A stretch of 64,000 nucleotides of DNA from Escherichia coli (GTDB lineage: Bacteria; Pseudomonadota; Gammaproteobacteria; Enterobacterales; Enterobacteriaceae), in assembly GCF_965641715.1 (NCBI RefSeq), contig NZ_OZ282453.1; one strand, written 5' to 3'. Positions 1-47,000 of the stretch are shown one piece after another (positions within the stretch are counted from its first letter, which is position 1; every line of letters begins with the position of its first letter). The notes beneath the pieces are model-generated. The model searched no databases. It saw nothing but the letters and a program-made list of their open reading frames with translations, and was not told the origin of the DNA. A program made the translations under genes and the position numbers.

Positions 1-2288
1 CCACAACACGAAAATTTAAAACCGTTATCACCGATACGGGTGCAAAAAAATTAGCTCAGGCAGCCGCGCCAGATGGTAAGCCTGTCCGCCTGACTCATAT
101 GGCCGTGGGCGACGGTGGCGGCACGTTGCCCACACCAGACAGTAAGCAGACCCGTCTGGTGCATGAGGTGTGGCGACACACTGTTAATCGCGTCATCCTG
201 GACGCAACACATCAGAACCGCATTATTGCGGAGCTGGTTATTCCTCCAGAAACGGGCGGATTCTGGATCCGGGAAATTGGTGTGTTTGATGAGCACGGCG
301 ATTTAATCGCAGTAGGCAATACTGCCGAAAGTTACAAGCCAACCGTTGCCGAAGGGTCAGGACGTGCACAAACATTTCGCACCATTCTGACCGTATCCAG
401 CACTGCCACCGTGGCGCTTACCGTGGATAACACCATGGTAATGGCCACAGTGGATTACGTGGATGACAAACTGAAAGAGCATGAACACTCACGACGTCAC
501 CCGGACGCCTCGCTGACCGCAAAAGGCTTTGTTCAACTTAGCAGCGCCACTAACAGCACGTCTGAAACGCTTGCGGCAACGCCAAAGGCTGTTAAGGCGG
601 CATATGACCTGGCTAATGGCAAATACACCGCACAGGACGCTACCACTGCGCGAAAAGGGATAGTTCAGCTCAGTAGCGCCACCAACAGCACGTCTGAAAC
701 GCAGGCTGCAACGCCGAAAGCAGTAAAGGCCGCGTATGACCTTGCTAACGCAAAATATACCGCTCAGGACGCCACGACGGCACAAAAAGGGATAGTCCAG
801 CTCAGTAGTGCCACCAACAGCACGTCTGAAACACTGGCCGCGACATCGAAAGCGGTTAAGGCGGTAATGGATGAAACGAACAAGAAAGCGCCCTTAAACA
901 GTCCTGCGCTGACCGGAACGCCAACAACGCCAACTGCGCGACAGGGAACGAATAATACCCAAATCGCAAGCACGGCTTTCGTTATGGCTGCGATTGCCGC
1001 CCTTGTAGATTCGTCACCTGACGCACTGAATACGCTGAACGAGTTAGCGGCGGCGCTGGGAAACGACCCGAATTTTGCGACCACCATGACTAACGCGCTT
1101 GCGGGTAAGCAACCGAAAGATGCCACCCTGACGGCGCTGGCCGGGCTTGCTACTGCGGCAGACAGGTTTCCGTATTTTACGGGGAATGATGTCGCCAGCC
1201 TGGCAACCCTGACAAAAGTCGGGCGGGATATTCTTGCGAAATCGACCGTTGCTGCCGTTATCGAATACCTCGGTTTACAGGAAACGGTAAACAGGGCTGG
1301 TAACGCCGTGCAAAAAAATGGCGATACTTTGTCCGGTGGGCTTACTTTTGAAAATGACTCAATCCTTGCCTGGATTCGAAATACTGACTGGGCGAAGATT
1401 GGATTTAAAAATGATGCCGATGGTGACACTGATTCATACATGTGGTTTGAGACAGGCGACAACGGCAATGAATATTTCAAATGGAGAAGCAAACAAAGCA
1501 CCACAACAAAAGACCTGATGAATCTTAAATGGGATGCTTTGTATGTTCTTGTTAAAGCTCTTTTCAGCAGTGAAGTAAAAATATCGACAGTCAATGCACT
1601 GAGGATATTTAATTCATCTTTTGGTGCCATTTTTCGCCGTTCTGAAGAATGCCTGCATATCATCCCTACACGAGAGAATGAGGGGGAAAATGGTAATATA
1701 GGGCCACTACGTCCCTTTACGCTTAATCTCAGAACTGGCCGCATAACTATGGGGCATGGTCTGGATGTTACAGGAGATATAACAACTAACGCCTGGGTGT
1801 ATGCAAACAGGTTTGCTATTAATAGTGGCTCAACCTCATGGATTGATATGCGAAACCAGAATGTCATTTTTGGTAGAAACGCAGTATCAACAAGTTCTGC
1901 GCAGGCTTTGTTAAGACAAGACCATGCAGAACGCAAATTTTTTGTCGGTGGACTTGGTAACTACCAGTTTGGTTTTTACATGATTAATAACTCAAGGACA
2001 GCCAATGGCACCGATGGTCAGGCGTACATGGACAATAACGGTAACTGGCTTTGTGGCTCGCAAGTTATTCCTGGCAACTATGGCAATTTTGATTCCAGAT
2101 ATGTGAGAGATGTTCGCCTGGGTACGCGAGTTGTTCAATTGATGGCGCGTGGTGGTCGTTATGAAAAAGCCGGACACGCAATTACCGGATTAAGAATCAT
2201 TGGTGAAGTAGATGGCGATGATGAAGCCATCTTCAGGCCAATACAAAAATACATCAATGGCACATGGTATAACGTCGCACAGGTGTAA
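1..2288 (+). CDS. Phage tail fibre protein (P2 gpH-like), 5' end outside window
   Basis: Reading frame is open from base 3 to stop at 2286-2288. N-terminal MAVGDGGG and AKGFVQLSSATNSTSETLAATPKAVK motifs are typical of P2 H-type fibres. C-terminus ends in INGTWYN-like motif. Confidence 0.85.
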   Translation, partial: TTRKFKTVITDTGAKKLAQAAAPDGKPVRLTHMAVGDGGGTLPTPDSKQTRLVHEVWRHTVNRVILDATHQNRIIAELVIPPETGGFWIREIGVFDEHGDLIAVGNTAESYKPTVAEGSGRAQTFRTILTVSSTATVALTVDNTMVMATVDYVDDKLKEHEHSRRHPDASLTAKGFVQLSSATNSTSETLAATPKAVKAAYDLANGKYTAQDATTARKGIVQLSSATNSTSETQAATPKAVKAAYDLANAKYTAQDATTAQKGIVQLSSATNSTSETLAATSKAVKAVMDETNKKAPLNSPALTGTPTTPTARQGTNNTQIASTAFVMAAIAALVDSSPDALNTLNELAAALGNDPNFATTMTNALAGKQPKDATLTALAGLATAADRFPYFTGNDVASLATLTKVGRDILAKSTVAAVIEYLGLQETVNRAGNAVQKNGDTLSGGLTFENDSILAWIRNTDWAKIGFKNDADGDTDSYMWFETGDNGNEYFKWRSKQSTTTKDLMNLKWDALYVLVKALFSSEVKISTVNALRIFNSSFGAIFRRSEECLHIIPTRENEGENGNIGPLRPFTLNLRTGRITMGHGLDVTGDITTNAWVYANRFAINSGSTSWIDMRNQNVIFGRNAVSTSSAQALLRQDHAERKFFVGGLGNYQFGFYMINNSRTANGTDGQAYMDNNGNWLCGSQVIPGNYGNFDSRYVRDVRLGTRVVQLMARGGRYEKAGHAITGLRIIGEVDGDDEAIFRPIQKYINGTWYNVAQV
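522..870 (+). repeat. Tandem in-frame coding repeats in tail fibre (two full 132-138 nt units plus a partial third)
   Basis: Peptide (G/I)VQLSSATNSTSET(L/Q)AATPKAVKAAYDLAN(G/A)KYTAQDATTA(R/Q)KG occurs twice in full and a third time partially. Nucleotide copies differ at synonymous positions. Confidence 0.8.
1258..1283. other. gix/pix-like invertase crossover site (left), inside tail fibre gene
   Basis: ttatcgaatacctcggtttacaggaa is an imperfect inverted copy of 4323-4348 and resembles the Mu gix site as recalled. Confidence 0.7.
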
Positions 2289-2819
2289 ATGATGCAGCAT
2301 TTAAAAAATATTAAGTCTGGAAATCCTAAAACGAAAGAACAATATCAGCTAACAAAGAATTTTGATGTTATCTGGTTATGGTCCGAAGACGATAAAAACT
2401 GGTATGAGGAAGTGAAAAACTTTCAGCCAGACACAATAAAGATTGTTTACGATGCAAATAATATTATTGTCGCCATCACTAAAGATGCCTCCACGCTTAA
2501 CCCTGAAGGTTTTAGCGTCGTTGAGGTTCCTGATATTACAGCCAACCGCCGCGCTGATGATTCAGGAAAGTGGATGTTTAAGGATGGAGCTGTAGTTAAA
2601 CGGATTTATACGGCAGACGAACAGCAACAACAAGGCGAATCACAAAAGGCCGCATTGCTTTCCGAAGCTGAATCAGTCATCCAGCCGCTGGAACGCGCTG
2701 TCAGGCTGAATATGGCAACAGACGAGGAACGCACACGACTGGAAGCATGGGAACGCTACAGTGTTCTGGTCAGCCGTGTGGATACGGCAAATCCTGAATG
2801 GCCACAAAAGCCTGAATAA
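2289..2819 (+). CDS. Tail fibre assembly chaperone (gpG/Tfa-like), cassette A
   Basis: 176 aa ORF directly after fibre stop. N-terminus [23 protein letters not shown] and C-terminal region match the Tfa family; paralogous to 2848-3381. Confidence 0.85.
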
Positions 2820-2826
2820 AAATTAA

Positions 2827-2842
2827 GGCCCGCGATCGGGCC
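2827..2842. terminator. Short GC hairpin between convergent tfa genes
   Basis: ggcccg-cgat-cgggcc palindrome; T-rich flank on the minus-strand side only. Confidence 0.4.
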
Positions 2843-2847
2843 TTGTC

Positions 2848-3381
2848 TCATTCAGGTTGTTCGGGAAATGTTACTGGCAGGCTGGAGGTGTCTGTAGATT
2901 CGACTTTCTGCGCATAGAGCATCCACTCGGTTAATTTTTGTTTATTCTCGTCGGAAATGATGCCCAGCCGTAGCTGTGAGTCCCATAGCTGGGTTTTATC
3001 CCTAACGAGCTGTAGCAGGCTTTGCTTTTCATTTTCCGCCTGCTGCCTCTGCTCTTCCTCGGTATAAGTTCGCTTTACCACTACGCCATCTTTGAACATC
3101 CATTTACCAGAAATATCAGCCCGGCGATTTGCTGTAATATCAGGAACCTCAACGACGCTTGCGCCTTCTGGATTAATTGCTGAAACATCCTTTTCAATAC
3201 AAATAATAACGTTGTTGTGGTCATAGACCATTTTCAACGTATCAGGCTGAAAGTTCTTTTGTTCCTCATACCAGTTTTTCCCATCCTCTGTATAAAGCCA
3301 TTTGATGTTAAATTGTTTCGTTAGCTGGTATTGCTCTTTTGTTTTAGGGTTGCCAGCAGTAATATTTTTTAAGTGCATCAT
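2848..3381 (-). CDS. Tail fibre assembly chaperone, alternative cassette B
   Basis: 177 aa minus-strand paralogue of the 2289-2819 product ([22 protein letters not shown]...), convergent with it. Confidence 0.8.
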
Positions 3382-3383
3382 AA

Positions 3384-4322
3384 TTAAATACTCCCCGCGT
3401 TATACCACGTCCCATTAATGCAATACTGAATTGGCCTTGCCTGAGTTGTATCAATTAATTCATCACGGTTTCCGTTAACTGAACCCGTAACGACATAACC
3501 TGACCTGTCAGACCAGCCGGGACCATTCCATGTCTGAACAGATGACAGACCGCCAAGGCGAATACCTGTAATAAACCTTGAGTTACATTCTGCCTGCGTG
3601 TATGCACCAACATCTCCCGCAGAGGGTTTGCGGGTCGTGGTGTAAAACTCTGACCAGTTAGCCTCAAATCCATAACCATCACGCGCTGAACGATAAAAAA
3701 TACCGCCGTTCCTGTAATTCACGCGGAACTGTACAGCAGGGCAGCTCCCCGTATTCATATTGAAGTGGAGGATTAATGTCGATGCACCGCTGATATCTGC
3801 ATCATAAACACCGCTATTCCAGTTCCAGCCAACAGCTTTATCATTTGCAACCCTGCTTCCTGTTTGCCCTAAAGCAAATGCAGGCTGCTGGTTTTTCGTG
3901 TTGTAGTCTCTTCGCCAGCCAGGAGCATAAGCATCACCATGATTAATATAAGTGAATTGAGCGTTAGAGGTGCCGCCTCCGGTGGAAGTGCTTGGTGTTG
4001 TTACACGGATGGTCATGGCACCTTTATTACCCATAACCTCAATAACGCAACCTGCAAGATGAATAGTTCCACAGCCAGTATCGGTAATAATTTTATTATT
4101 GCCGTATGACCATGAACATTTGCACATCCAGTATGGGTGATTGAATGCCCCTTGAGAATCCAGCCATTCAATCAATTGTGCCGTTGTCCAGTTCCCTGCC
4201 CCTGTACTAATAGCACTGTGAAAAGCGCGACATGCACCAATATTTTTTGTGAAGGTATCTTTTCCTGGAATATCTGCGCCGTTCTGGTTTTTCTGTAATG
4301 CGCCAGAAGCCTGATTTACCGT
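3384..4322 (-). CDS. Promoterless alternative tail-fibre C-terminal cassette, expressed only after inversion
   Basis: Minus-strand frame is open from the crossover site at 4323 to a stop at 3384. It begins ...[12 protein letters not shown], matching the [11 protein letters not shown] junction of the plus-strand fibre, and ends [11 protein letters not shown]. It has no start codon of its own upstream. Confidence 0.75.
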
Positions 4323-4348
4323 TTCTTGTAAACCGAGGTTTTAGATAA
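4323..4348. other. gix/pix-like invertase crossover site (right)
   Basis: ttcttgtaaaccgaggttttagataa, inverted partner of 1258-1283, immediately upstream of the invertase gene. Confidence 0.7.
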
Positions 4349-4402
4349 TGGCCGTTTCTGACCTGCATGGCATGATTTACGCTTTTGGACGGGAGATTCA
4401 GC

Positions 4403-4990
4403 GTGCTGATTGGCTATGTAAGGGTATCAACAAATGACCAGAATACAGACCTGCAACGAAACGCTCTTGTTTGTGCAGGATGTGAACAAATATTTGAAGA
4501 TAAATTAAGCGGGACAAAGACAGACCGACCGGGATTAAAACGCGCTTTAAAGCGTCTTCAAAAAGGTGACACGCTGGTTGTCTGGAAACTGGATCGCCTC
4601 GGGCGAAGCATGAAACATCTGATTTCTCTCGTCGGGGAACTACGGGAGCGAGGGATTAATTTTCGCAGTCTGACCGACAGCATAGATACATCTTCTCCAA
4701 TGGGGCGTTTTTTCTTCCACGTGATGGGTGCCCTGGCTGAAATGGAACGTGAATTAATTGTTGAACGTACACTGGCCGGACTGGCAGCAGCGCGCGCACG
4801 GGGGCGCACAGGCGGACGTCGCCCGAAGCTGACAAAAGAACAGCATGAGCAAATAGCAAGGCTGATTAAAAACGGTCACGACAGAAAACAACTGGCAATA
4901 ATTTACGGCATTGGTACATCGACGATTTATCGTTACCACCCCGCAGGAGAATCAAGCGGAGCAATAGAGAAGAGTCAGAAAACAAAATAA
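4403..4990 (+). CDS. Serine DNA invertase (Pin/Gin/Hin/Cin family)
   Basis: N-terminus (V)LIGYVRVSTNDQNTDLQRNAL with catalytic serine context and a C-terminal helix-turn-helix region. Probable GTG start at 4403; the ORF track starts at a TTG at 4385. Confidence 0.9.
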   Translation: MLIGYVRVSTNDQNTDLQRNALVCAGCEQIFEDKLSGTKTDRPGLKRALKRLQKGDTLVVWKLDRLGRSMKHLISLVGELRERGINFRSLTDSIDTSSPMGRFFFHVMGALAEMERELIVERTLAGLAAARARGRTGGRRPKLTKEQHEQIARLIKNGHDRKQLAIIYGIGTSTIYRYHPAGESSGAIEKSQKTK

Positions 4991-5025: not shown

Positions 5026-5520
5026 TCAGAACAGCCCTTTAACTGAACTGGCCGCGCTGTTAAGAGATGATGTCACCTTATCTTTGAAGCCGGACAGCAT
5101 ATCGCTGAACGATGAGGATTGCAGGCGCTCCCGCAAATCCTCATCACAGCGTTCAAGGGTCAGTGAAAATTCTATCTTTTTCGCCTTACCGTAGCGATCA
5201 AACTCGGAACGGGTCGTATTCGTTCCGGTCAGGACATACATGCCGTAAATCTGCCCGACACCATCAATCAGAGGCCAGGGGCGTCCTGTATATGCCTGCG
5301 TGGTCAGCAACGAAAGCGACACTTCGCCACCTGTAATTTCAGGATAAAGCACACCAGAAAGAACGATGCGATCATCGCCTGCCCCGATATACTGCCAGCT
5401 TGCTGAACGGTTAACGCGTTCATTTTTCACATGCCGCCAGCTTTTGTTTTGCTGTAACTGCTGATGCGGCAACGTGCGCAGCTCAAAAACAAACATGCCG
5501 TAGATCATCATCATGGCCAT
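5026..5520 (-). CDS. Phage tail protein (P2 gpU-like)
   Basis: 164 aa ORF immediately downstream of the tape-measure gene on the minus strand; size and position match gpU. Exact start among the N-terminal Met codons is uncertain. Confidence 0.7.
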   Translation of the reverse strand: MAMMMIYGMFVFELRTLPHQQLQQNKSWRHVKNERVNRSASWQYIGAGDDRIVLSGVLYPEITGGEVSLSLLTTQAYTGRPWPLIDGVGQIYGMYVLTGTNTTRSEFDRYGKAKKIEFSLTLERCDEDLRERLQSSSFSDMLSGFKDKVTSSLNSAASSVKGLF

Positions 5521-5526
5521 GACTCC

Positions 5527-8334
5527 TCAATCTTTATCGTAAAAACTGCCACGCCCGGCACGGGCGCGCCGTTCCATTTCTGCCCTGACCATTTCACCGA
5601 CCAGTTTCGCCAGTTCGCGGGGATTCTGCGTAACAACGTTATGCAGATGAACATGAATTTCACCACCAAATCCGGAGGCAACAGGCTCCCGGTTACGGGA
5701 AGTTACAGGAACTGATGCCACTGGAGATCGTATGGCCTCCGCCACCGGGCGGGAGCTGGCCGCAACAACAGGGACCAGCGCCGGAGGCAGCGGAGCCGGG
5801 ACCACGGGGGTGATATTAATTGCGGGGGCAGGCTTACTGACCTGCGCAATCTTCCGCTCCTGCCACTCCCCACGAACAGCAAGTGCGCGGGGCAGGTTCT
5901 TAAAGACAATATCGCCGGGGCCAATGCGTTTTTTCGTCTCATCAACCAGCTTACCTGTGTTATCAGCAATTTTGCTGAGTCTGCGTAGCGTCCCGGTATT
6001 GCTGTCTGTGAGCGGTTTATTGTCTTTGGGGTTATCACCTCCGGTGCCATTGCCATTTTCCACAGGCTTCGGCGGATTGATTTTCGCCAGGTCCCCCTGA
6101 AGCAAGGCAACCTTGTCCTGAAGAATGGCCGCACGCTGTGCGTCTTCGATTTTCTTTCTCGCCCTTTCCGCTTCATCCGGAAGCACACCGAGTTTTTCAA
6201 GTATCCACGCCAGCGTATCCAGCAGCATTTTTGCAGGCGTCAGAACAAGCTGTAGCGCGCCACCAAGAACGTTACCGAATATCTCGCCAGCACTGGTACA
6301 TTTATCCAGCGTTTCCTTGCTGGACTCCATCGGTGACAGCAGCGATTTAAACCAGTTAAAGAGCTGAATAATCCCATCGCGCACGACATCAAAAACAGGA
6401 CCAAACCGTTCAAAGGTTTCGCGCAACGGAGCCAGCCGTTCCATAATTCCACTGAACACCCCGGCATAAAACGCCTTGATGGGTTCCCAGTATTTCCAGA
6501 TGAGAACCGCCGCAGCCACAAACGCGGCAACAATCAATCCGACCGGACTGAACAGCGCCCCGATAGCGCCACCCAGCAACGAGATGGAACCTGTTACCAT
6601 TCCCCATAGTGCTGGCAGCACCCTGACGACATTCATTGATCCGGTCAGGAGAGAAAAACCAAGACGTAACGTGGCCAGTTTCCCGTGAAGCACGCCAATA
6701 ACCAGCGACAACGAGCCAATCGTTGCAGTCATTGCCAGCAACGCACCGCCTGCTATCAGTAGCTGGCGCGTCAGTGCCGGATGGGCCTGCGCCAGCGCCG
6801 TCACCCTTGATACCACCCGCGTGAGCCACTGCGTGACAGAACGCAGCGGGCCGTCAATCAGATCTGCAATGCGGATGCGCAACCCTTCCCATGCACTGCC
6901 GAGTGATTTCAGATCGCCGTCAAGGTTGTTGGCCATAACCTTTGCTGTGCGTTCAGCCTCACCGCGCGCGCCTTCAAGTTCTTTTCTCAGTTTAGGTAAG
7001 GAACCGTCACCCGCTGCATCAACGAGCGCCATAAACGATGTGAAAGCCTCTTCTCCGGCAATGTCCTTAAAGAACGATACCCGGTCAACTTCCCCGTATT
7101 TGCGGGTGGCTTTATAAAGGTCGGCCAGCACATCCTCCATCGGGCGCATTTTGCCGTTCGCGTCAGAGACTGCCACACCAAGCTCTTTCAGCGCCTCTGC
7201 TGCCGCCTTTGGCGGTGATGCAAGACGAGCCAGGCTGGCACGCATTGCCGTCCCGGCATCACTTCCCCTGATACCCATATTCGCCAGCACGCCCGCCATC
7301 GCTGCGGCCTGCTCCAGCGATATTCCCAGCTTGCCCGCCACCGGACCTGCATATTTCATGGTTTCGCCCAGTGCGCGAAGGTCAGTGTTGGTACGGGTAA
7401 ACGCTGCGGTGAGCGTGTCACCGACCCGGTCCATCTGGTCAGCAGAAAGGCCGAACTGCGTCAGGATATTTGAGCCAATATCTGCCGTCTCGCCGAGATC
7501 CATACCGCCAGCCGTTGCCATGCTCAGCACTCCGGGGAGCGCAGCCTGAATGGCCTGCGGTGTGAAGCCAGCCATTGCAAGAAATGCCTGCCCACTGGCG
7601 GCATCGCCTGCGGTGAACTGCGTTTCAGAGCCAAGTTTTAACGCCTGCTCACGCAGCGCCTTAAACTGCGGGCTGTTCTGGTCGATTCGCGTCAGCGCCT
7701 GAACGCGGGACATCTCTTTGCCGAACCCGATCGCGGGCTGCAAAAAACGCCCGGCAGCATAGCCGCCCGCCGCTGCCGCACCAATTGCCAGCGCACCACC
7801 TGTTTTCAGTTTTCCCGCGGTTTCCTGCGCGCGCGAATACCGCTCACGCGCCCGCGTTACACGCGCAAGCGCCTGCCGTTCGCGTTCAAGCTGGTTGTTG
7901 TACTGTTCGGTGCGTCTGATGGCCTGCTGGATGGTGTTATCGCTGCCTGTCAGGGAAATGCCGTGGCGTTTCAGCTCTCCGCCAAGTTCCCGCATTTTCT
8001 GAATTTCCCGTGTGCGCGATTCATTCAGGCGTTCAAGCCGGGTGCTTAACTGCTGCATCAGCTTTTGTTGTTTTTCGCTGAGCACTGTACCCGTGCGTTG
8101 TAACTGATTAAGAGCGTTAAGCTGGCGTCGTGCTTTCAATATGCCAGCATCCGCTTTACTGACAGCGTCACGGGCGCGCTCAAATGAACGCGCCTGACGC
8201 TCGAGATTTTTGATCGCCCCCTGCGTTCGCTGGATGGAGTCACCAAACTGCCCCATCAGGCGGCGGGCGTTTTCGGCAGGCCGGGTCAGCCTGTCAACGG
8301 CGCTGAAAGCGACCCGGATATCAAGAGTCTTCAT
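5527..8334 (-). CDS. Tail tape-measure protein (P2 gpT-like)
   Basis: About 935 aa, Ala/Gly-rich with predicted coiled-coil and membrane-like segments, downstream of the E/E' pair. ATG start at 8334 preferred over the GTG at 8370. Confidence 0.85.
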   Translation of the reverse strand: MKTLDIRVAFSAVDRLTRPAENARRLMGQFGDSIQRTQGAIKNLERQARSFERARDAVSKADAGILKARRQLNALNQLQRTGTVLSEKQQKLMQQLSTRLERLNESRTREIQKMRELGGELKRHGISLTGSDNTIQQAIRRTEQYNNQLERERQALARVTRARERYSRAQETAGKLKTGGALAIGAAAAGGYAAGRFLQPAIGFGKEMSRVQALTRIDQNSPQFKALREQALKLGSETQFTAGDAASGQAFLAMAGFTPQAIQAALPGVLSMATAGGMDLGETADIGSNILTQFGLSADQMDRVGDTLTAAFTRTNTDLRALGETMKYAGPVAGKLGISLEQAAAMAGVLANMGIRGSDAGTAMRASLARLASPPKAAAEALKELGVAVSDANGKMRPMEDVLADLYKATRKYGEVDRVSFFKDIAGEEAFTSFMALVDAAGDGSLPKLRKELEGARGEAERTAKVMANNLDGDLKSLGSAWEGLRIRIADLIDGPLRSVTQWLTRVVSRVTALAQAHPALTRQLLIAGGALLAMTATIGSLSLVIGVLHGKLATLRLGFSLLTGSMNVVRVLPALWGMVTGSISLLGGAIGALFSPVGLIVAAFVAAAVLIWKYWEPIKAFYAGVFSGIMERLAPLRETFERFGPVFDVVRDGIIQLFNWFKSLLSPMESSKETLDKCTSAGEIFGNVLGGALQLVLTPAKMLLDTLAWILEKLGVLPDEAERARKKIEDAQRAAILQDKVALLQGDLAKINPPKPVENGNGTGGDNPKDNKPLTDSNTGTLRRLSKIADNTGKLVDETKKRIGPGDIVFKNLPRALAVRGEWQERKIAQVSKPAPAINITPVVPAPLPPALVPVVAASSRPVAEAIRSPVASVPVTSRNREPVASGFGGEIHVHLHNVVTQNPRELAKLVGEMVRAEMERRARAGRGSFYDKD

Positions 8335-8538
8335 TGTCTGTATTCCCGCTGCGAAGTGCCGCCCGCTCACGCCAGCTAACCACTTCGCCGGGAGTCATCA
8401 TGAAGATTTCGGCGGGCGACCAGTTAAAAATGGCGGCAATATCCGCCACAAAGTCTTCTATGTGCTCAAAGCACACAACCGTGATCAGGCTTCCGTCGCC
8501 TGTTCGTTCTTCCCGCCAGAGTCCGCACCGCTCAAAAA
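8321..8538 (-). CDS. E' extension frame of tail chaperone, reached by programmed -1 frameshift from E
   Basis: A 78-codon frame overlaps the 3' end of E and ends at the tape-measure start. It is entered at the minus-strand TTTTTTG heptamer. Confidence 0.6.
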
Positions 8539-8850
8539 ATTTACGGCAACCACACATAACTGAATAAAGTCACGGGATGCCATTTTTTTGATCGTCACTT
8601 CATCCAGTCGCGGTGATGTCACGCGTGACAGCAGCGTAAACATGGATTCCGCTTTCAGATTCAGCACATCAGACAGCGACAAATCTCGCAGAGATCCAGC
8701 CTGCTCAATAGCCCCGGTGATCTCCACATACGTGATTTTTTCGCCGCCTCGCTCAATTGGTTGGGTAAGTTTTACGCCACGCTCACTGGTTTCTTTCACA
8801 GTGTCAGTAACTACCGTGTTTTCGGTATCGATGTTTTTCGTCTCTTTCAT
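8485..8850 (-). CDS. Tail assembly chaperone (P2 gpE-like)
   Basis: Small ORF between the tail tube and tape-measure genes, with an overlapping -1 frame. True start may be internal. Confidence 0.7.
   Translation of the reverse strand: MKETKNIDTENTVVTDTVKETSERGVKLTQPIERGGEKITYVEITGAIEQAGSLRDLSLSDVLNLKAESMFTLLSRVTSPRLDEVTIKKMASRDFIQLCVVAVNFLSGADSGGKNEQATEA
8532..8538 (-). other. Candidate -1 frameshift slippery heptamer TTTTTTG (E/E')
   Basis: Plus strand reads caaaaaa at 8532-8538; on the minus strand the E frame reads gta aat ttt ttg agc. Same arrangement as the P2 E/E' recoding site. Confidence 0.6.
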
Positions 8851-8904
8851 CAGGAAACTCCTTTCAGTCAGAGGCGACGCACTGCGCCGCCTGCATATTA
8901 CTTA

Positions 8905-9417
8905 TCAGCCAAGCCCAAGCGCGGAACGGATACGGTCAGGCACAATGTCCTTGCCGTCCTTCCGGTAGATGAAGTTCAGCAGGTCAATCTCCCACAACGG
9001 GCGATCGTTAACACTCAGCTTGTAGTAGGTGTTTTTAATGGCGTAAGTGTGTGATGTGGCTTCGCCCTGTTTGGCTTCCCCCATATCAATTTCCGTCACA
9101 CGTCCGCGCATTTCGACTTCATACAGGTCGCTTTCTGCATCGGTGTAGTATTCACCCGCAAAACGCAGCAGCGTGCCGTCAATCGTGCCGCCATACTTAA
9201 GGAACAGCTCACGAACTGCGCCCCCCATGACAAAGCTCGCATCAAGCGCGGAGTCGTCCAGACCGAGATCAATACTTACCGCACCCATCATGCCGCCACC
9301 CCGGTAGCTGTCGGTTTTGCGCGTCAGCTTAGGCAGAGTGACGGACGTCACCTTACCCACTTCGTTTTCACCATCCACAAACAGCGTAAAAAAGCGAAGA
9401 TGTTTTGGCACAGCCAT
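8905..9417 (-). CDS. Tail tube protein (P2 gpFII-like)
   Basis: 170 aa, start overlaps the sheath stop (shared A at 9417); position and size match FII. Confidence 0.85.
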   Translation of the reverse strand: MAVPKHLRFFTLFVDGENEVGKVTSVTLPKLTRKTDSYRGGGMMGAVSIDLGLDDSALDASFVMGGAVRELFLKYGGTIDGTLLRFAGEYYTDAESDLYEVEMRGRVTEIDMGEAKQGEATSHTYAIKNTYYKLSVNDRPLWEIDLLNFIYRKDGKDIVPDRIRSALGLG

Positions 9418-10601
9418 CAGGCACCTCCCAGCACCGCAAATGCGGGTTCAAAGTATTCATCAGTAAACGTCTGGTAAAGCTCCATGTCTTCCAGTGGCGG
9501 AACGGGCGTATATTTGTAGCGAATACGCACGCGCCCCTGACGTAAATCCGTGGTGCTGTTATCCACCACGTCATACCAGCACTCCGCGCCAATCAGTTTC
9601 CCGGCAGTAACCAGTGAATCCAGTTTTGCCCTGATGGCACTGATAACATCCTTCACGTTCGCAGGCGTCAGTGGACTGTCGATGGTTTCAAACTGCGCTT
9701 CCGCAATTGAATCAGCCAGCACCTGTGCGGTTCGGGTATACACCTCAAAGATGTAGGCGTTCGTTTCCGGTGTGCGGTTGCCCCAGAAGCGGAACCCGTT
9801 GCGACGAATAATGGTCGTGATTTCTTTGTTGTTGAGGCTGTTGGCATCGCTGTCTTCGGCCTGCAACGACCAGAACACATGCTTCGACATCCCCAGCACA
9901 TTTTTAACCGGAACGTTGGACAGTGATTTGTGCCACCCCTGCTCATGGTCAATGTACGCACGAAGGCCGCACGCATAGGCAGGTGCGGGGAACGTTTCGT
10001 TTTTGCCACTTTTCGGGTTGTAGGCGATGAAGTCCGGCCATAAGAGCATCACCTCACGTTCGTTGAATTTCTGGCGGTAGGTAATCGCCTCAGCCATCGT
10101 GTTACAGCCGTGACATGAGGCATACACAAACGCGCGCAGTTTACCCGCAATCACGCACAGGGATTTTGTTACAGCCTCCGTGTCCAGCTCCGGCGCGGCC
10201 AGAATACGCGGACGGTATCCGATGCTTTCATCCTGCTCTGCAACAAGCAGCGCATACATCCCCGTATAGCTGCCGTCAGATTCAGAACCACCGATAACCA
10301 GTTGATCCTGCGTCTTTCCGTCTTCTTCTTTGTGTTCAGCCACGCGAACGACGATCACCTTTGTGCTCACCTGGTCTGCGATGGCCTTAAGCGCACGATA
10401 AAGCGTCCCCGTTGTCCCGCATTTTCCCAGCACGTCATTGACGCGGGTCAGCAGTGTGGGCTTGTTCAGCGGGAACAGCTTCGCGTCCGCATCATCCGCC
10501 GTTGCCACGATACCGATAACGCTGGAATCAACATCGTTAATCGCTGTTACCAGGTCGGTATTTTCCGTAACACGGGCACCATGAAAACGAGTTTCACTCA
10601 T
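9417..10601 (-). CDS. Contractile tail sheath protein (P2 gpFI-like)
   Basis: 394 aa, MSETRFHGARVTENTDLVTAINDVD...; sheath family by size and position upstream of the tube gene. Confidence 0.85.
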   Translation of the reverse strand: MSETRFHGARVTENTDLVTAINDVDSSVIGIVATADDADAKLFPLNKPTLLTRVNDVLGKCGTTGTLYRALKAIADQVSTKVIVVRVAEHKEEDGKTQDQLVIGGSESDGSYTGMYALLVAEQDESIGYRPRILAAPELDTEAVTKSLCVIAGKLRAFVYASCHGCNTMAEAITYRQKFNEREVMLLWPDFIAYNPKSGKNETFPAPAYACGLRAYIDHEQGWHKSLSNVPVKNVLGMSKHVFWSLQAEDSDANSLNNKEITTIIRRNGFRFWGNRTPETNAYIFEVYTRTAQVLADSIAEAQFETIDSPLTPANVKDVISAIRAKLDSLVTAGKLIGAECWYDVVDNSTTDLRQGRVRIRYKYTPVPPLEDMELYQTFTDEYFEPAFAVLGGA

Positions 10602-10758
10602 AGCTTCAGCCCCTTGTATCCGTTAAATGATTCGGCAACAATCATCACCCACCACGCGCGTAATCTCACCCCTGCGCCGTTCTCCCGCCACGGCGACAAC
10701 AAAAAGCAGTAACCCCCTCCGCACGCACATGCGACCATGCCGCACAGGGAGGGAGCAG

Positions 10759-11868
10759 ATGACCGACACCACCATGCAATTGCTCAGTCAGGGCACAGAC
10801 CCCGTGAAAATGCCGGATTTTGATATTCTCGCGGAGGGTAAAACGCTGTCAGGCGTGGCAGAGCGCCTGATGAGCCTGTCAGTGACCGACAACCGGGGAT
10901 TTGAAGCGGACCAGCTCACCATCACGCTGGATGATGCGGATGGTCAGTTGCAGCTACCGCCACGGGGCGCGCGCCTGACGGTTCTCATTGGCTGGAAAGG
11001 AGAACCGCTGACAGAAAAAGGCACTTACATTGTTGATGAAATCGCTCACGAAGGACCGCCGGACAGGCTGACTGTTTCAGCCAGAAGCGCAGATTTTCGG
11101 GATGAATTTAACGTTAAACGTGAGGTGTCCTGGCATGATGTGACCGTTGAGCGTGTGGTATCCGCCATCGCTCATCGGTACGGTCTGAAACCGCAAATCA
11201 GCGAAATGCTGATGGATATCGAAATCGACCACGCCGACCAGACCGAAGAAAGCGACATGTCCTTTCTTACGCGCATGGCGGAAATGCTGGGCGCAATCAC
11301 CACGGTAAAAAGCGGTAATCTGTTATTCATTATGCCAGGCGGTGGCGTGAACGCACAGGGCCAGCCGTTGCCCTCGTTCGCCATCACGCGCAGCAGTGGC
11401 GATCGCCATCAGTTCCGCATTGCTGACCGCGAAGCGTATACGGGGGTACGCGCTTACTGGCTTGATCTTAATTACGGGAAAAAGAAAAAAGTCAGCGTGA
11501 AACGCCGCAAACCGCCAAAACCCAAAAAGGAGAAAAGCAGCAGCCGTGAAGGTGATTATATGGAAGGTGCGGAAGGCAATGTGTTTGTGTTACGCAAGAC
11601 TTATCAGAACGAGCAGGCAGCAAGACGCGCAGCGGCGGCAAAGTGGCAGCAACTACAACGCGGAGCCGCATCATTCTCCATCACGCTGACACGTGGACGA
11701 GCAGAACTCTACCCCGAAATGCATGGCACGGTAACAGGATTTAAAAGCGAGATTGATAATCAGGACTGGATTATTGCGAAAGCCGAGCACACCATTGATA
11801 ACAGTGGCTTTACCACGCAGCTTGAGCTTGAAGCAAAAATCCCGGAATGGATAGCAGAAACAGAGTGA
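10759..11868 (+). CDS. Phage late gene D protein (P2 gpD-like tail protein)
   Basis: 369 aa from the ATG preceded by GGGAGGGAG. Lysine-rich central linker and overall layout match gpD. Divergent from the sheath gene. Confidence 0.8.
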   Translation: MTDTTMQLLSQGTDPVKMPDFDILAEGKTLSGVAERLMSLSVTDNRGFEADQLTITLDDADGQLQLPPRGARLTVLIGWKGEPLTEKGTYIVDEIAHEGPPDRLTVSARSADFRDEFNVKREVSWHDVTVERVVSAIAHRYGLKPQISEMLMDIEIDHADQTEESDMSFLTRMAEMLGAITTVKSGNLLFIMPGGGVNAQGQPLPSFAITRSSGDRHQFRIADREAYTGVRAYWLDLNYGKKKKVSVKRRKPPKPKKEKSSSREGDYMEGAEGNVFVLRKTYQNEQAARRAAAAKWQQLQRGAASFSITLTRGRAELYPEMHGTVTGFKSEIDNQDWIIAKAEHTIDNSGFTTQLELEAKIPEWIAETE

Positions 11869-11910
11869 GCAACTTAGAATAGCGGCAGCACCACGTTAAG
11901 GGAGGTCGCT

Positions 11911-12171
11911 ATGTTCCGTTGTCCGCTTTGTGGCGCATCTGCCCGTATCCGCACCAGTCGTCCGGAAAATGATTCAAACACCGTGCGGCAAAAGTATTAC
12001 CAGTGTAACAATCTGGAATGCGGCGTATGCTTCTCAACACTGGAAGCTTTCCATAAATTCACATCGAAACACGCCTCCGGCGTTCACTCTTCAGAAGGTA
12101 TCCCGTGGCATGAGCTGCCAGCTTCACACAGGGGAAACAATCAGATGAGTTTGCCTTTATCTCAGAATTAA
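11911..12171 (+). CDS. ogr: Ogr/Delta-family zinc-finger late transcription activator
   Basis: 86 aa, CPLC...X...CNNLEC four-cysteine pattern, N-terminus MFRCPLCG like P2 Ogr, directly after D. Confidence 0.8.
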   Translation: MFRCPLCGASARIRTSRPENDSNTVRQKYYQCNNLECGVCFSTLEAFHKFTSKHASGVHSSEGIPWHELPASHRGNNQMSLPLSQN

Positions 12172-12259
12172 CAGGCAGAATTGCCGGAGTAACAAAAAAG
12201 CGATAGATTACGCGCGGGTGCCTTTCGGCTGATGGTCGGAGGGAATACCCGAAGGCCAG

Positions 12260-12496
12260 ATGTGGAAAGGCCCCGGAAAACATTTCTGTTTAACCGAGGC
12301 CCTAACACTTCTTACCTTCGCAAGTAGAAGGTTAGCGCCTCTCCTCTCAGGAGACAAGCGTTATGACGCAAATTCCGTTAAAAACCCTGTTACTTTGCAT
12401 AACTGCGGTAGCGATAATCTGGATCCTCCACACATCACCGTGCGAGTTACGATTCAGGTTTGCTGGCACGGAAATTGCGGCATTCTTACTATGTAA
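12260..12496 (+). CDS. mok-like overlapping reading frame of the hok locus
   Basis: 78-codon frame starts 103 nt upstream of hok and overlaps it out of frame, as mok does in hok/sok loci; GAAGG precedes the ATG. Confidence 0.4.
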   Translation: MWKGPGKHFCLTEALTLLTFASRRLAPLLSGDKRYDANSVKNPVTLHNCGSDNLDPPHITVRVTIQVCWHGNCGILTM

Positions 12497-12503
12497 TAAG
12501 TAA
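12363..12503 (+). CDS. Hok/Gef-family type I toxin (small membrane peptide)
   Basis: 46 aa MTQIPLKTLLLCITAVAIIWILHTSPCELRFRFAGTEIAAFLLCNK: hydrophobic helix followed by C-E-L-R-F-R and E-I-A-A-F motifs. AGGAG lies 9 nt upstream. Below the 60-aa cutoff of the ORF track. Confidence 0.75.
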   Translation: MTQIPLKTLLLCITAVAIIWILHTSPCELRFRFAGTEIAAFLLCNK

Positions 12504-12590
12504 GATAACCGCGACGGGGGAGTAATCCCCCGTCAATCGGTTGCTAAGGTTGGTCGAAACGGCATCCTATCTCACAGACATGAACAACAA

Positions 12591-12622
12591 ACCCGCAGCG
12601 TAAAAACTGCGGGTTTTCTTTT
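12591..12622 (+). terminator. Intrinsic terminator downstream of hok
   Basis: acccgcag-cgtaaaaa-ctgcgggt hairpin followed by tttctttttg. Confidence 0.6.
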
Positions 12623-12670
12623 TGCTACCCTCACAAATGAGGGCACCATACATAAGCAATAGGCATAACA

Positions 12671-12710
12671 GATCGATGCAATAAATCCGATCGATAAAAA
12701 CGATCGATTT
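12671..12710. promoter_or_regulatory. Cluster of three GATCGAT (Dam-site) repeats upstream of com
   Basis: GATCGAT at 12671, 12690 and 12703, 40-80 bp upstream of the com start. Resembles the three-GATC regulatory region of the Mu mom operon. Confidence 0.4.
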
Positions 12711-12752
12711 GTTATCATATCGGCAGCAGTAACCACACAAGAGGTGCCGCAA

Positions 12753-12950
12753 ATGACGCAAAATGTACGATGCAAAAATTGCAACAAACTACTTGCCCGC
12801 GCCTCATTTCACTACATTGAAATAAAATGTCCGCGCTGCAAAACACTTAACCAGATAACGAGAGCCATCGAGCACCCCACACACATGAGGAGTTATGACC
12901 GTGGGGATCGCAATCCAGCACCAACCAGCACATACGCCAGAACACACTAA
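12753..12950 (+). CDS. com: Com-like zinc-finger translational regulator (Mu Com family)
   Basis: 65 aa, MTQNVRCKNCNKLLARASFHYIEIKCPRCK..., matching the Mu Com CKNCNKLL...IEI(R/K)CPRCK pattern. AAGAGG RBS; 3' end overlaps the methyltransferase start. Confidence 0.7.
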   Translation: MTQNVRCKNCNKLLARASFHYIEIKCPRCKTLNQITRAIEHPTHMRSYDRGDRNPAPTSTYARTH

Positions 12951-13701
12951 GGTTTATCAGACTGACAATGTCACGCTCTGTTGTGGGAATGCACTGGAAA
13001 TATTGCCGCTGATTGAGCCAGAAAGCATTGATGCCTTAATCACTGACCCGCCTTACAGTTCGGGTGCGACACACAAGGCCGGACGCACCAATCAGGGCAG
13101 CCATGCAAAATATCTGAACGGCGAGAACCTTCACCGCTTTGATGGGTTCGCGGGTGAAAACATGGACGCCCGTTCGTGGGCTTACTGGACACAATTATGG
13201 ATGGCACAGGCACACCGCGCAGTCAGGCCAGGCGGTTATGCCATGGTATTTACTGACTGGCGACAACTACCAGCTTTAACCGATGCGTTTCAGGCCAGTG
13301 GCTTTACATGGCGCGGCATCATTGCGTGGAACAAGGGGAGGGGGTCACGAACACCACATACCGGGTATTTCCGGCATCAGTGCGAATACATCGTCTGGGG
13401 CAGCAAAGGCCATTTAGATAAATCGCCTTCGGGGCCGTTCGACGGCTGCATGACGTACCCGGTTATCCCGTCAAAGAAAATGCACCCGACCGGAAAACCA
13501 GAAGAACTAATGGCGGAACTGGTCAGGACTGTGAATAGTGGCGGAACAGTCCTTGATCCTTTTATGGGGTCAGGGACAACGGGTGTGGCTGCACTGAAAG
13601 CAGGGCGAAAATTTATTGGTATAGAAACCAGTGATCATTATTTTGAGGTAGCAGCGCAGCGGCTTCGGGGGACTATTACCACAACCATTTCGGCTACATA
13701 A
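12895..13701 (+). CDS. DNA methyltransferase, beta-class (N6-adenine or N4-cytosine), no restriction partner in window
   Basis: 268 aa with motif order DPPY before FMGSGTT. No restriction endonuclease nearby. Start overlaps the end of com by 56 nt. Confidence 0.85.
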   Translation: MTVGIAIQHQPAHTPEHTKVYQTDNVTLCCGNALEILPLIEPESIDALITDPPYSSGATHKAGRTNQGSHAKYLNGENLHRFDGFAGENMDARSWAYWTQLWMAQAHRAVRPGGYAMVFTDWRQLPALTDAFQASGFTWRGIIAWNKGRGSRTPHTGYFRHQCEYIVWGSKGHLDKSPSGPFDGCMTYPVIPSKKMHPTGKPEELMAELVRTVNSGGTVLDPFMGSGTTGVAALKAGRKFIGIETSDHYFEVAAQRLRGTITTTISAT

Positions 13702-17044: not shown

Positions 17045-17106
17045 CCTAAAGAATCAAGACGATCCGGTACGCGTGATTTTCTTTTCACATTAATCTGGTC
17101 AATAAC

Positions 17107-17134
17107 CTTGAATAATTGAGGGATGACCTCATTT
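17107..17134 (+). promoter_or_regulatory. Sigma-32 heat-shock promoter of clpB
   Basis: CTTGAA, 14 nt spacer, CCTCATTT (consensus CCCCATnT), about 40 bp upstream of the clpB start. Confidence 0.65.
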
Positions 17135-17173
17135 AATCTCCAGTAGCAACTTTGATCCGTTATGGGAGGAGTT

Positions 17174-19747: not shown

Positions 19748-19752
19748 TGATA

Positions 19753-19780
19753 AAACGAGCCCTTCGGGGCTCGTTTTTGT
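19753..19780 (+). terminator. clpB intrinsic terminator
   Basis: aaacgagccc-ttcg-gggctcgttt followed by TTTGT. Confidence 0.8.
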
Positions 19781-19861
19781 CTATAAGTTAGACGGAAAAG
19801 ACTATATTTAAGATGTTTTGCCTGAAAAATGAGCGAACGATAAAGTTTTTATATTTTTCGC

Positions 19862-19889
19862 TTGTCAGGCCGGAATAACTCCCTATAAT
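19862..19889 (+). promoter_or_regulatory. rrnG P1 promoter
   Basis: TTGTCA, 16 nt spacer, TATAAT, with an A/T-rich UP-like element upstream. Confidence 0.8.
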
Positions 19890-19979
19890 GCGCCACCACT
19901 GACACGGAACAACGGCAAACACGCCGCCGGGTCAGCGGGGTTCTTCTGAGAATCTCAACAGAGAAAAGCAAAAAAATGC

Positions 19980-20007
19980 TTGACTCTGTAGCGGGAAAGC
20001 GTATTAT
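19980..20007 (+). promoter_or_regulatory. rrnG P2 promoter
   Basis: TTGACT, 16 nt spacer, TATTAT. Confidence 0.8.
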
Positions 20008-20044
20008 GCACACCCCGCGCCGCTGAGAAAAAGCGAAGCGGCAC

Positions 20045-20057
20045 TGCTCTTTAACAA
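20045..20057 (+). promoter_or_regulatory. rrn leader boxA antitermination element
   Basis: tgctctttaacaa matches the boxA consensus. Confidence 0.8.
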
Positions 20058-20188
20058 TTTATCAGACAATCTGTGTGGGCACTCGAAGATACGGATTCTT
20101 AACGTCGCAAGACGAAAAATGAATACCAAGTCTCAAGAGTGAACACGTAATTCATTACGAAGTTTAATTCTTTGAGCATCAAACTTTT

Positions 20189-21730
<1,542 letters not shown>

Positions 21731-21815
21731 CCTTAAAGAAGCGTACTTTGCAGTGCTCACACAGATTGTCTGATAGAAAGTGAAAAGCAAGGCGTCTTGC
21801 GAAGCAGACTGATAC

Positions 21816-21891
21816 GTCCCCTTCGTCTAGAGGCCCAGGACACCGCCCTTTCACGGCGGTAACAGGGGTTCGAATCCCCTAGGGGACGCCA
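21816..21891 (+). tRNA. gltW: tRNA-Glu (anticodon UUC) in the 16S-23S spacer
   Basis: GTCCCCTTCGTCTAGAGGCCCAGGACACCGCCCTTTCACGGCGGTAACAGGGGTTCGAATCCCCTAGGGGACGCCA. Confidence 0.97.
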
Positions 21892-22084
21892 CTTGCTGGT
21901 TTGTGAGTGAAAGTCGCCGACCTTAATATCTCAAAACTCATCTTCGGGTGATGTTTGAGATATTTGCTCTTTAAAAATCTGGATCAAGCTGAAAATTGAA
22001 ACACTGAACAACGAAAGTTGTTCGTGAGTCTCTCAAATTTTCGCAACACGATGATGGATCGCAAGAAACATCTTCGGGTTGTGA

Positions 22085-24988
<2,904 letters not shown>

Positions 24989-25080
24989 ACAACGCCGAAG
25001 CTGTTTTGGCGGATGAGAGAAGATTTTCAGCCTGATACAGATTAAATCAGAACGCAGAAGCGGTCTGATAAAACAGAATT

Positions 25081-25200
25081 TGCCTGGCGGCCGTAGCGCG
25101 GTGGTCCCACCTGACCCCATGCCGAACTCAGAAGTGAAACGCCGTAGCGCCGATGGTAGTGTGGGGTCTCCCCATGCGAGAGTAGGGAACTGCCAGGCAT
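25081..25200 (+). rRNA. rrfG: 5S ribosomal RNA
   Basis: TGCCTGGCGGCCGTAGCGCGGTGGTCCCACC ... GAACTGCCAGGCAT; 120 nt. Confidence 0.97.
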
Positions 25201-43968: not shown

Positions 43969-45768
<1,800 letters not shown>

Positions 45769-45783
45769 CCCTTAGGAGTTGGC

Positions 45784-46758: not shown

Positions 46759-46773
46759 TAGCTCATCTTCGTT

Positions 46774-46997: not shown

Positions 46998-47000
46998 TGA

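What the first reader, a model, noticed from the sequence alone, without database searches (positions are those of the whole stretch)
522..870. Tail-fibre tandem repeats conserved in protein but diverged at synonymous sites
The 44-46 aa unit ...VQLSSATNSTSET.AATPKAVKAAYDLAN.KYTAQDATTA.KG appears twice in full and once partially. The DNA copies differ at third positions (cttagcagcgccactaac vs ctcagtagcgccaccaac vs ctcagtagtgccaccaac). That pattern suggests selection to keep the protein repeat while lowering DNA identity, which would reduce recombinational collapse; the copy number may set fibre shaft length.
Basis: seen in the sequence. Interest (0 to 1): 0.3.

Follow-up and report, generated by a model that had tools for sequence, protein, structure and literature searches.

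The report
Ordinary tail-fibre shaft repeat, cassette-shuffled
The repeats are real, but they are the well-known 44-residue "phage tail fibre repeat" in a P2/P88-like prophage fibre gene. Their silent-site differences come from old, separately inherited repeat units joined by recombination, not from selection to make the DNA copies unlike.

Summary
Observation confirmed. Window 522-917 holds three in-frame 132-nt (44-aa) units: two full, and a third sharing its first 26 codons. Differences sit almost entirely at third codon positions (R1 vs R2: 1/3/23 by position; aa 91%, nt 80%; pN 0.05, pS 0.68).

The units are Pfam PF03406 (Phage_fiber_2, three stretches, E 1.5e-59). They lie in the constant part of a P88/P2-type fibre gene with a Gin/Cin-type invertible distal segment.

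Purifying selection on the protein is clear. Copy number varies from 1 to 8 in 80+ homologues, with identical flanking modules and no length compensation.

Selection for lower DNA identity fails every test I could run:
- Synonymous codon differences are fewer than independent codon draws predict (20 vs 26 of 40).
- Units within one array are more alike than units from different arrays (0.870 vs 0.830, P<5e-5).
- Homologues carry 96-100% identical neighbouring units with unequal-crossover signatures.
- The window's R1/R2 divergence exists because R1 is a different allele brought in by recombination. The left side matches L049 and the right side matches P88, with the junction at the R1/R2 border.

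Verdict: ordinary, already-known repeat family. Low interest.

The parts
1..2288 (+). Tail fibre gene (P2 gpH / P88 fibre type). It is read in frame from nt 3, and its start codon lies about 7 nt upstream of the window edge.
   Evidence: ORF list. Pfam: PF12571 N-terminal domain, PF03406 x3, Gp34_trimer. 93.8% nt identity over its whole length to the P88 'tail fiber protein' AIZ95147.1.
9..452 (+). N-terminal baseplate-attachment domain (Phage_tail_fib, PF12571).
   Evidence: aa 3-150, E 2e-55.
522..653 (+). Repeat unit R1 (44 aa, full). Unit allele 'L', a minority allele carrying many rare codons.
   Evidence: Nearest units are L049 unit 1 (99.2%) and L011 unit 1 (94.7%), but only 83/74% to P88 R1.
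654..785 (+). Repeat unit R2 (44 aa, full). Unit allele 'C', the second-position unit of the P88 family.
   Evidence: 96-97% identical to unit 2 of P88 and 11 related loci.
786..917 (+). Repeat unit R3 (terminal). The first 26 codons (786-863) are repeat. The rest is the start of the P2-type distal shaft (VMDETNKKAPLNSPALTG).
   Evidence: Homology between fibres with different distal modules stops right after ...AATPKAVK of this last unit.
1254..1318 (.). Context: left inverted repeat of the invertible segment. Its core at 1258-1285, TTATCGAATACCTCGGTTTACAGGAAAC, resembles the gix/cix crossover sites from my own recollection of them; no consensus comparison was run. It lies inside the fibre gene.
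   Evidence: pair I2, 65 nt, 77% complementary. Sequence read.
2289..2819 (+). Context: tail fibre assembly protein for the currently expressed fibre tip.
   Evidence: PF02413, E 1.3e-36.
2848..3381 (-). Context: alternative tail fibre assembly protein.
   Evidence: PF02413, E 4.1e-37.
3384..4348 (-). Context: alternative fibre C-terminal segment (Sv'-like), running from the right crossover site (core 4321-4348) to its stop.
   Evidence: Matches Mu S' in PDB 8ju3.
4385..4990 (+). Context: serine DNA invertase (Gin/Cin/Pin type).
   Evidence: Resolvase E 1.5e-50 plus HTH_7. P88 annotates it as 'DNA invertase'.

Best explanation
The region is an array of three copies of the known 44-residue phage tail fibre repeat (Pfam PF03406). 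It sits in the constant, baseplate-proximal part of a P88/P2-type prophage tail fibre.

Shown:
- Each unit has a nearly invariant box (QLSSATNSxSETxAATPKAVK) and a linker (AAYDLANGKYTAQDATTAxKG). The amino-acid sequence is under strong purifying selection.
- The units are old, distinct 'cassette' lineages with positional homology across many phages.
- Arrays change by unequal crossover or slippage between misaligned neighbours (gain or loss of one or two units) and by homologous exchange between different prophages inside the conserved box.
- The window's array is such a recombinant: an 'L'-type first unit (as in locus L049) joined to a P88-type second and terminal unit.

Inferred:
- The units stack along the trimeric shaft, so unit number sets how far the receptor-binding distal part is held from the baseplate.
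- The conserved box doubles as the homology patch that lets distal modules be swapped.
For: Family and gene identity.

Purifying selection: dN/dS about 0.03; all unit pairs, mean pS 0.49, pN 0.06.

Cassette lineages with positional preference. Types A, B, D, E, L and N occur at position 1, with one exception (one of 13 D units sits at position 2). H, K and M occur only at position 2, and C at position 2 in 12 of 13 cases. The window reads 'L C |', P88 'B C |' and L049 'L |'.

Recombinant origin. Window vs P88 is about 98% identical everywhere except R1 (83/74%). Window vs L049 is 98-100% identical from the N-terminus through R1.

Unequal-crossover signature. The extra unit in L067 and in L023 consists of codons 1-5 of the following unit plus codons 6-44 identical to the preceding unit.

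Copy-number polymorphism between otherwise identical arrays, including complete genomes:
- DMFGJ| (ETEC1738) vs DMFGGJ| vs DMFGGGJ|
- BFWX| (GTEN_23) vs BFWXWX|
- DC| (UMNF18) vs DD'C| (E94)

No excess synonymous divergence.

Concerted evolution rather than enforced divergence.

Length change without compensation: (4/6/8 units give 775/863/951 aa with the same 441-aa distal part; 1-4 units occur with the P2-type distal part).

Mosaic junction right after the last box.

Abundant recombination partners: related DNA is present in 1,780 of 5,426 complete E. coli genomes, with a median of 2 places per genome.
Against: - No structure of the repeat is available. AF2 monomer and linked pseudo-trimer models were unusable (pLDDT 37 and 42), so the shaft-stacking and length inference is untested.
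- Arrays with 100% identical units (L017, L018, L036) come from draft-genome-derived IMG/VR contigs and could be mis-assembled. The hybrid-unit cases and the complete genome E94 do not have this problem.
- The 80 loci were retrieved partly with peptide patterns taken from the repeat itself, which biases the sample toward close relatives.
- A survivorship effect, where diverged arrays last longer, is compatible with the same data.
Confidence: 0.8

Rival explanations
1. One reading: natural selection has actively driven synonymous codons apart between the copies. This would lower DNA identity and protect the array from recombinational collapse while keeping the protein repeat.
For: - The longest identical runs between the window's units are short: 19, 17 and 23 nt. 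By established knowledge (my own, not tested here) this is at or below the roughly 23-27 bp minimal processing segment for RecA-dependent recombination in E. coli.
- Arrays with identical units show copy-number polymorphism between near-identical loci.
- Diverged arrays such as 'B C |' recur unchanged in 7 loci.
Against: - Codon differences are fewer than expected for independent draws (20 vs 26 +/- 2.9; R2-R3 9 vs 16).
- Same-array units are more similar than different-array units.
- Codon choice across all 93 unique full units is strongly correlated, with per-codon synonymous heterozygosity mostly 0-0.6.
- Close relatives of the window carry R1/R2 pairs with 30-59 nt identical tracts and 86-91% identity.
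- The window's high divergence is explained by allele replacement of R1.
Confidence: 0.12
2. Concerted evolution alone: the copies are kept similar in protein by continual gene conversion, and the third-position differences are just recent noise.
For: There is a within-array similarity excess. Patchy identical tracts occur between R1 and R2 in P88-type arrays. E94 unit 2 has a mosaic structure.
Against: pS of 0.68 between R1 and R2 is near saturation, not recent noise. Unit types keep positional identity across many phages. Conversion would homogenise synonymous sites too.
Confidence: 0.06
3. Recent duplication or assembly artefact with no biological meaning.
For: None for the window.
Against: The units differ at 20-39% of nucleotides. 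The same three-unit layout is found in P88 and 27 other loci. Pfam recognises each unit.
Confidence: 0.01

Closest known systems
Pfam PF03406 Phage_fiber_2 ('Phage tail fibre repeat', InterPro IPR005068)
   Same: The three units match the 42-position model end to end (E 1.5e-59). The family is listed as a roughly 40-residue tail fibre repeat in PMC3368898.
   Different: Nothing substantive. The family had no solved structure as of PMC8078820. The PDB sequence search found the unit only in Mu S chains, and whether it is modelled there was not determined.
Bacteriophage P2 gpH (AAD03286.1)
   Same: Same architecture: PF12571 N-terminal domain, PF03406 units, then the shaft with VMDETNKKAPLNSPALTG and a downstream Tfa gene. 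About 86% nt identity over 222-1555.
   Different: P2 has two units (one full plus the terminal one), and the megablast match is exactly 132 nt shorter. P2's N-terminal domain is only 56-70% identical at DNA level. P2's annotated H-G region shows no invertase or alternative fibre segment.
Escherichia phage P88 tail fibre (AIZ95147.1; Xuanwuvirus)
   Same: 93.8% nt identity over the whole gene. Same three-unit layout, same invertible segment, invertase and gene order.
   Different: P88's first unit is type 'B', while the window's is type 'L' (83/74% identity across R1 against about 98% elsewhere).
Mu S, P1/P7 S, lambda Stf and Stx-phage fibres
   Same: All carry the same unit: Mu S residues 109-150; P1 S two stretches; lambda-DE3 orf-401 one; 933W L0121 one. 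The window's distal part 1320-2288 is 98.5% identical to P7 Sv'.
   Different: They have different N-terminal attachment domains and fewer units. The unit is embedded between other shaft types, for example collagen repeats in 933W.
Adenovirus fibre shaft repeats (analogy, from my own knowledge; not tested here)
   Same: A trimeric fibre whose shaft length is set by the number of a short sequence repeat that varies between types.
   Different: Unrelated sequence and fold (15-residue triple beta-spiral). Eukaryotic virus.

Membership tests
Pfam PF03406 Phage_fiber_2 | Score above the curated gathering threshold | tested here: met
   197.7 bits against a cut-off of 22; three stretches.
Pfam PF03406 Phage_fiber_2 | Tandem units of about 40 residues in a tail fibre protein | tested here: met
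   Exact 44-aa period in the window and in 82 other loci.
P2 gpH / P88-type tail fibre | N-terminal Phage_tail_fib (PF12571) domain | tested here: met
   E 2e-55, aa 3-150.
P2 gpH / P88-type tail fibre | Followed by a Tfa chaperone gene (PF02413) | tested here: met
   2289-2819, E 1.3e-36.
P2 gpH / P88-type tail fibre | Located directly after baseplate genes J and I | tested here: inconclusive
   The window starts inside the fibre gene. The 93.8%-identical P88 locus, the P2 locus and four E. coli loci have this order.
P2 gpH / P88-type tail fibre | Trimeric fibre with the repeat forming part of the shaft | not testable with these tools
   AF2 monomer pLDDT 36.8 and linked pseudo-trimer pLDDT 42.2. 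The only PDB relatives of the unit are Mu S chains.
   20 observed against 26.0 +/- 2.9 expected (R1-R2), 9 against 16.0 (R2-R3), 14 against 16.1 (R1-R3).
   Within 0.870 against between 0.830, the opposite direction. Robust to filtering.
   96-100% identical neighbours in L017, L018, L023, L027, L036 and L067. The neighbouring units in complete genome E94 are 93% identical.
Gin/Cin/Pin invertible tail-fibre segment (context) | Serine invertase, inverted crossover sites inside the fibre gene, and an alternative C-terminus with its own Tfa | tested here: met
   P7 C-segment match at 98.5%.

The most novel reading that the evidence does not exclude
The array acts as an evolvable length 'rheostat'. 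Unequal crossover in the conserved box adds or removes 44-residue shaft modules (1 to 8 seen), and selection picks the fibre length that matches the thickness of the host's O-antigen or capsule layer. The single hypervariable residue in each box (position 13, NS-x-SE) would tune surface properties. Under this reading, copy number would correlate with host surface type rather than drift.
Probability: 0.2. Interest if true: 0.45.

Novelty: already known. Interest (0 to 1): 0.12.

Why it matters
It matters little for discovery. The repeat family, the gene and tail-fibre mosaicism are all established.

The practical value is modest. The data give a clean natural record that this array gains and loses units by unequal crossover. 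They also show that the conserved box is the junction where proximal and distal fibre modules are exchanged. Both points are useful when designing chimeric P2-type or tailocin fibres, for choosing fusion points and for deciding whether to recode repeats.

The case also shows that low dN/dS between repeat copies is not evidence for selection on DNA dissimilarity.

Tried and rejected
- Structure prediction of the repeat region as a monomer (pLDDT 36.8) and as three copies joined by Gly-Ser linkers (pLDDT 42.2, pTM 0.46). Both are too poor to use. The pseudo-trimer hinted at three short strands plus one helix per unit, but I do not rely on it, and no fold search was run on it.
- PDB sequence searches. 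Only Mu fibre S/S' chains contain one unit. The Mu in-situ paper (PMC11915804) says only 'the N-terminus' of gp49 was built, so I could not tell whether the unit is resolved.
- Literature searches for the repeat and for synonymous divergence in fibre repeats. These found only listings of the Pfam family. The classic P2 H and tail-fibre mosaicism papers are not in the held library and are cited from memory only.
- Assembly or duplication artefact: rejected.
- Search for the exact window array in complete E. coli genomes: best match 95.2%. This allele combination is therefore rare, which fits a recombinant origin but is otherwise unremarkable.
- Long antisense ORFs over the fibre gene (489-785 and 764-1936, minus strand): assumed spurious and not examined further.
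Full report
**What is in the sequence**

The finding lies in a long ORF that runs off the left edge of the window and ends at 2288 (frame of nt 3). Tandem Repeats Finder reports a 132-nt period at 531-862 with 2.5 copies and 83% matches. The repeat finder gives three in-register copies.

In codon register the units are R1 522-653, R2 654-785 and R3 786-917, each exactly 44 codons. R3 shares only its first 26 codons, up to ...AVK at nt 863, and then continues as VMDETNKKAPLNSPALTG.

| Pair | nt identity | aa identity | Differences by codon position | pS | pN |
|---|---|---|---|---|---|
| R1 vs R2 (full) | 79.5% | 90.9% | 1 / 3 / 23 | 0.68 | 0.05 |
| R2 vs R3 (first 26 codons) | 85.9% | n/a | n/a | 0.46 | 0.034 |
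| R1 vs R3 (first 26 codons) | 76.9% | n/a | n/a | 0.79 | 0.043 |

For R1 vs R2 the dN/dS is about 0.03 after correction (all values).

**What the gene is**

Pfam assigns four elements to the protein:
- an N-terminal Phage_tail_fib domain (PF12571, E 2e-55)
- three stretches of Phage_fiber_2, 'phage tail fibre repeat' (PF03406, E 1.5e-59)
- a Gp34_trimer domain
- two downstream Caudo_TAP fibre-assembly genes in opposite orientation, a second fibre C-terminus on the minus strand, and a serine invertase

The whole gene is 93.8% identical to the tail fibre gene of Escherichia phage P88 (Xuanwuvirus), with the same neighbours. The part from 1320 to 2288 is 98.5% identical to the Sv' segment of phage P7.

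Inverted repeats at 1254-1318 and 4288-4352 flank a roughly 3-kb invertible segment. Their cores at 1258-1285 and 4321-4348 look gix/cix-like from memory; no consensus comparison was run. The repeats therefore sit in the constant, baseplate-proximal part of a fibre whose distal tip can be switched.

The host flank is E. coli: clpB is 99.6% identical to E. coli genomes, and an rRNA operon and known sRNAs follow.

**Is this repeat known?**

Yes. PF03406/IPR005068 is a curated family, listed for example in PMC3368898. It was used as a family without a solved structure in PMC8078820.

| Protein | PF03406 stretches | Source |
|---|---|---|
| This window | 3 | |
| P2 gpH | 2 | |
| P1 S | 2 | |
| lambda-DE3 orf-401 | 1 | |
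| Stx phage 933W L0121 | 1 | |
| Mu S | 1 unit (residues 109-150) | |

**Copy number in homologues**

I collected 80 IMG/VR loci encoding relatives, plus P88, P2 and four loci from RefSeq E. coli chromosomes. The number of units ranges from 1 to 8, always with a 44-residue spacing.

The distribution among the 83 sequences examined (82 fetched loci plus the window) is: 1 unit in 4, 2 in 31, 3 in 28, 4 in 15, 6 in 2, 7 in 2 and 8 in 1.

Copy number varies with the same modules on either side. With the '...SAYDNAEKRLQK' distal part (441 aa), there are 4, 6 and 8 units, giving proteins of 775, 863 and 951 aa. With the P2-type distal part there are 1, 2, 3 and 4 units. Physical length was not measurable here.

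**Testing 'selection to lower DNA identity'**

Low dN/dS with high dS is what any old duplication under protein constraint shows, so it cannot discriminate. I used four sharper tests.

1. *Do the copies avoid each other's codons?* Using codon usage from 3,121 codons of the prophage's own genes, independent draws would make 26.0 +/- 2.9 of the 40 comparable R1/R2 codons differ. Only 20 do (P of at least 20 is 0.99; P of at most 20 is 0.03). R2/R3 shows 9 against 16.0, and R1/R3 shows 14 against 16.1. The copies are, if anything, still more alike than random.

2. *Are units in one array kept apart?* Across 42 distinct arrays with at least two full units, unit 1 vs unit 2 of the same array are 87.0% identical, against 83.0% for unit 1 vs unit 2 of different arrays. 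None of 20,000 permutations reaches the observed value. The result survives removing pairs of at least 95% identity and keeping one array per unit-type pair (0.854 vs 0.819). This is concerted evolution, the opposite of enforced divergence.

3. *Do high-identity neighbours exist?* Yes. Adjacent-unit identity ranges from 72% to 100% across all adjacent pairs, including pairs with the terminal unit. L023, L067 and L027 have neighbours at 98, 97 and 96%. L017 and L018 carry two and three copies of a 100% identical unit. L036 has an exact two-unit (264-nt) block duplicated.

4. *Why is the window's pair so divergent?* It is the second lowest of 42. Clustering the 93 unique full units at 94% identity gives 39 types with clear positional preference. 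The window reads 'L C |', P88 and six relatives 'B C |', four loci 'A C |', L049 'L |', and L011/L015 'L R |'.
   - Window vs P88 is about 98% identical along the gene except across R1 (83% and 74% in the two 66-nt bins).
   - Window vs L049 is 98-100% identical from the N-terminus through R1.
   - The window is thus a recombinant, L049-like on the left and P88-like on the right, with the junction at the R1/R2 border.
- R1 carries the minority codon at many positions.

**How the arrays change**

The extra unit in L067 ('D D C |') and in L023 has codons 1-5 identical to the following unit and codons 6-44 identical to the preceding unit. This is the product expected from an unequal crossover, or slipped duplication, between misaligned neighbours with the exchange in the conserved core.

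Otherwise-matching arrays in RefSeq E. coli chromosomes confirm the polymorphism:

| Shorter array | Longer array |
|---|---|
| UMNF18 'D C \|' | E94 'D D' C \|' |
| ETEC1738 'DMFGJ\|' | L017 'DMFGGJ\|' and L018 'DMFGGGJ\|' |
| GTEN_23 'BFWX\|' | L036 'BFWXWX\|' |

In an alignment of 15 three-unit fibres, similarity is near-perfect up to ...AATPKAVK of the last unit. It then vanishes where different distal modules begin. The box is therefore also the mosaic junction between proximal and distal fibre parts.

Related DNA occurs in 1,780 of 5,426 complete E. coli genomes, with a median of two places per genome. Partners for exchange are plentiful.

The mechanistic premise is reasonable. The window's longest identical runs between units are 17-23 nt. 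That is at or below the minimal homology usually quoted for RecA-dependent exchange in E. coli (my own knowledge, not tested here). Arrays with identical units are the ones seen in several copy-number states.

A passive survivorship effect, where diverged arrays last longer, therefore cannot be excluded. Nothing, however, indicates that selection has pushed codons apart, and several results point the other way.

**Caveats**

- The IMG/VR loci come largely from draft genomes, so runs of 100% identical units could be mis-assembled. The hybrid-unit cases and the E94/UMNF18 pair do not depend on them.
- The search for related loci used peptide patterns from the repeat itself and kept the best 80 of 568 hits, so distant architectures are under-sampled.
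- Both AlphaFold attempts failed. How a unit folds, and how much length it adds, is inference only.

**Verdict**

The explanation is ordinary: a known, protein-constrained fibre-shaft repeat evolving by unit birth-and-death, conversion and inter-prophage recombination. The exact 'L C |' allele is not found above 95.2% identity in complete E. coli genomes, but that is a trivial novelty. Interest is low.

Noticed in passing
window 1254-1318 and 4288-4352; 2289-4990: The fibre gene's distal third lies in a roughly 3-kb invertible segment. It carries two convergent fibre-assembly genes, an alternative fibre C-terminus (Mu S'-like) and a serine invertase at 4385-4990, as in Mu G, P1/P7 C and P88. 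The crossover-site cores look gix/cix-like from memory.
   Followed up: partly
window 1320-2288: The currently expressed distal fibre part is 98.5% identical to the Sv' segment of plasmid-prophage P7 (and 98.2% to RCS47). It is much closer than the rest of the gene is to any P1-like phage, which points to recent exchange between a P2-like prophage and P1-like phages.
   Followed up: no
codon 13 of every repeat unit (window 558-560, 690-692, 822-824): Within the otherwise invariant box NS-x-SE, one residue is hypervariable across 139 unique units (T, D, V, A, P, E, K, I, M; 1.95 bits). Neighbouring codons are nearly fixed even at synonymous sites (for example AAC AGC ... TCT GAA). Possibly a surface-exposed position.
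   Followed up: partly
L083 (E. coli E94) unit 2, compared with L084 (UMNF18): The extra unit in E94 is a three-part mosaic: codons 1-15 like the following unit, 16-32 like the preceding unit, and 33-44 like the following unit again. This suggests a conversion patch on top of the unequal crossover.
   Followed up: partly
window 489-785 and 764-1936, minus strand: Long antisense ORFs (98 and 390 aa) overlap the fibre gene. They are probably chance products of its composition.
   Followed up: no
window 917-934: A perfect 9-nt tandem duplication, AACGCCAAC x2, encodes TPTTPT just after the repeat array (TRF score 36).
   Followed up: no
window 5026-13701: After the invertase, the tail genes (gpD-like 5026-5520, tape measure 5527-8370, a gene at 8905-9417 whose PHROG match is annotated 'head closure', and a sheath gene at 9417-10601) are on the minus strand. 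That is the P88 (Xuanwuvirus) order rather than the P2 order. A DNA methyltransferase gene lies at 12895-13701 near the presumed prophage end.
   Followed up: partly
window 17055-25198 and 43256-59922: The host flank is E. coli chromosome. It holds RyfD sRNA, clpB (99.6% to E. coli), a complete rRNA operon with tRNA-Glu, then the rseC antisense AsrC, rncO, OhsC and GlmY RNA families.
   Followed up: partly
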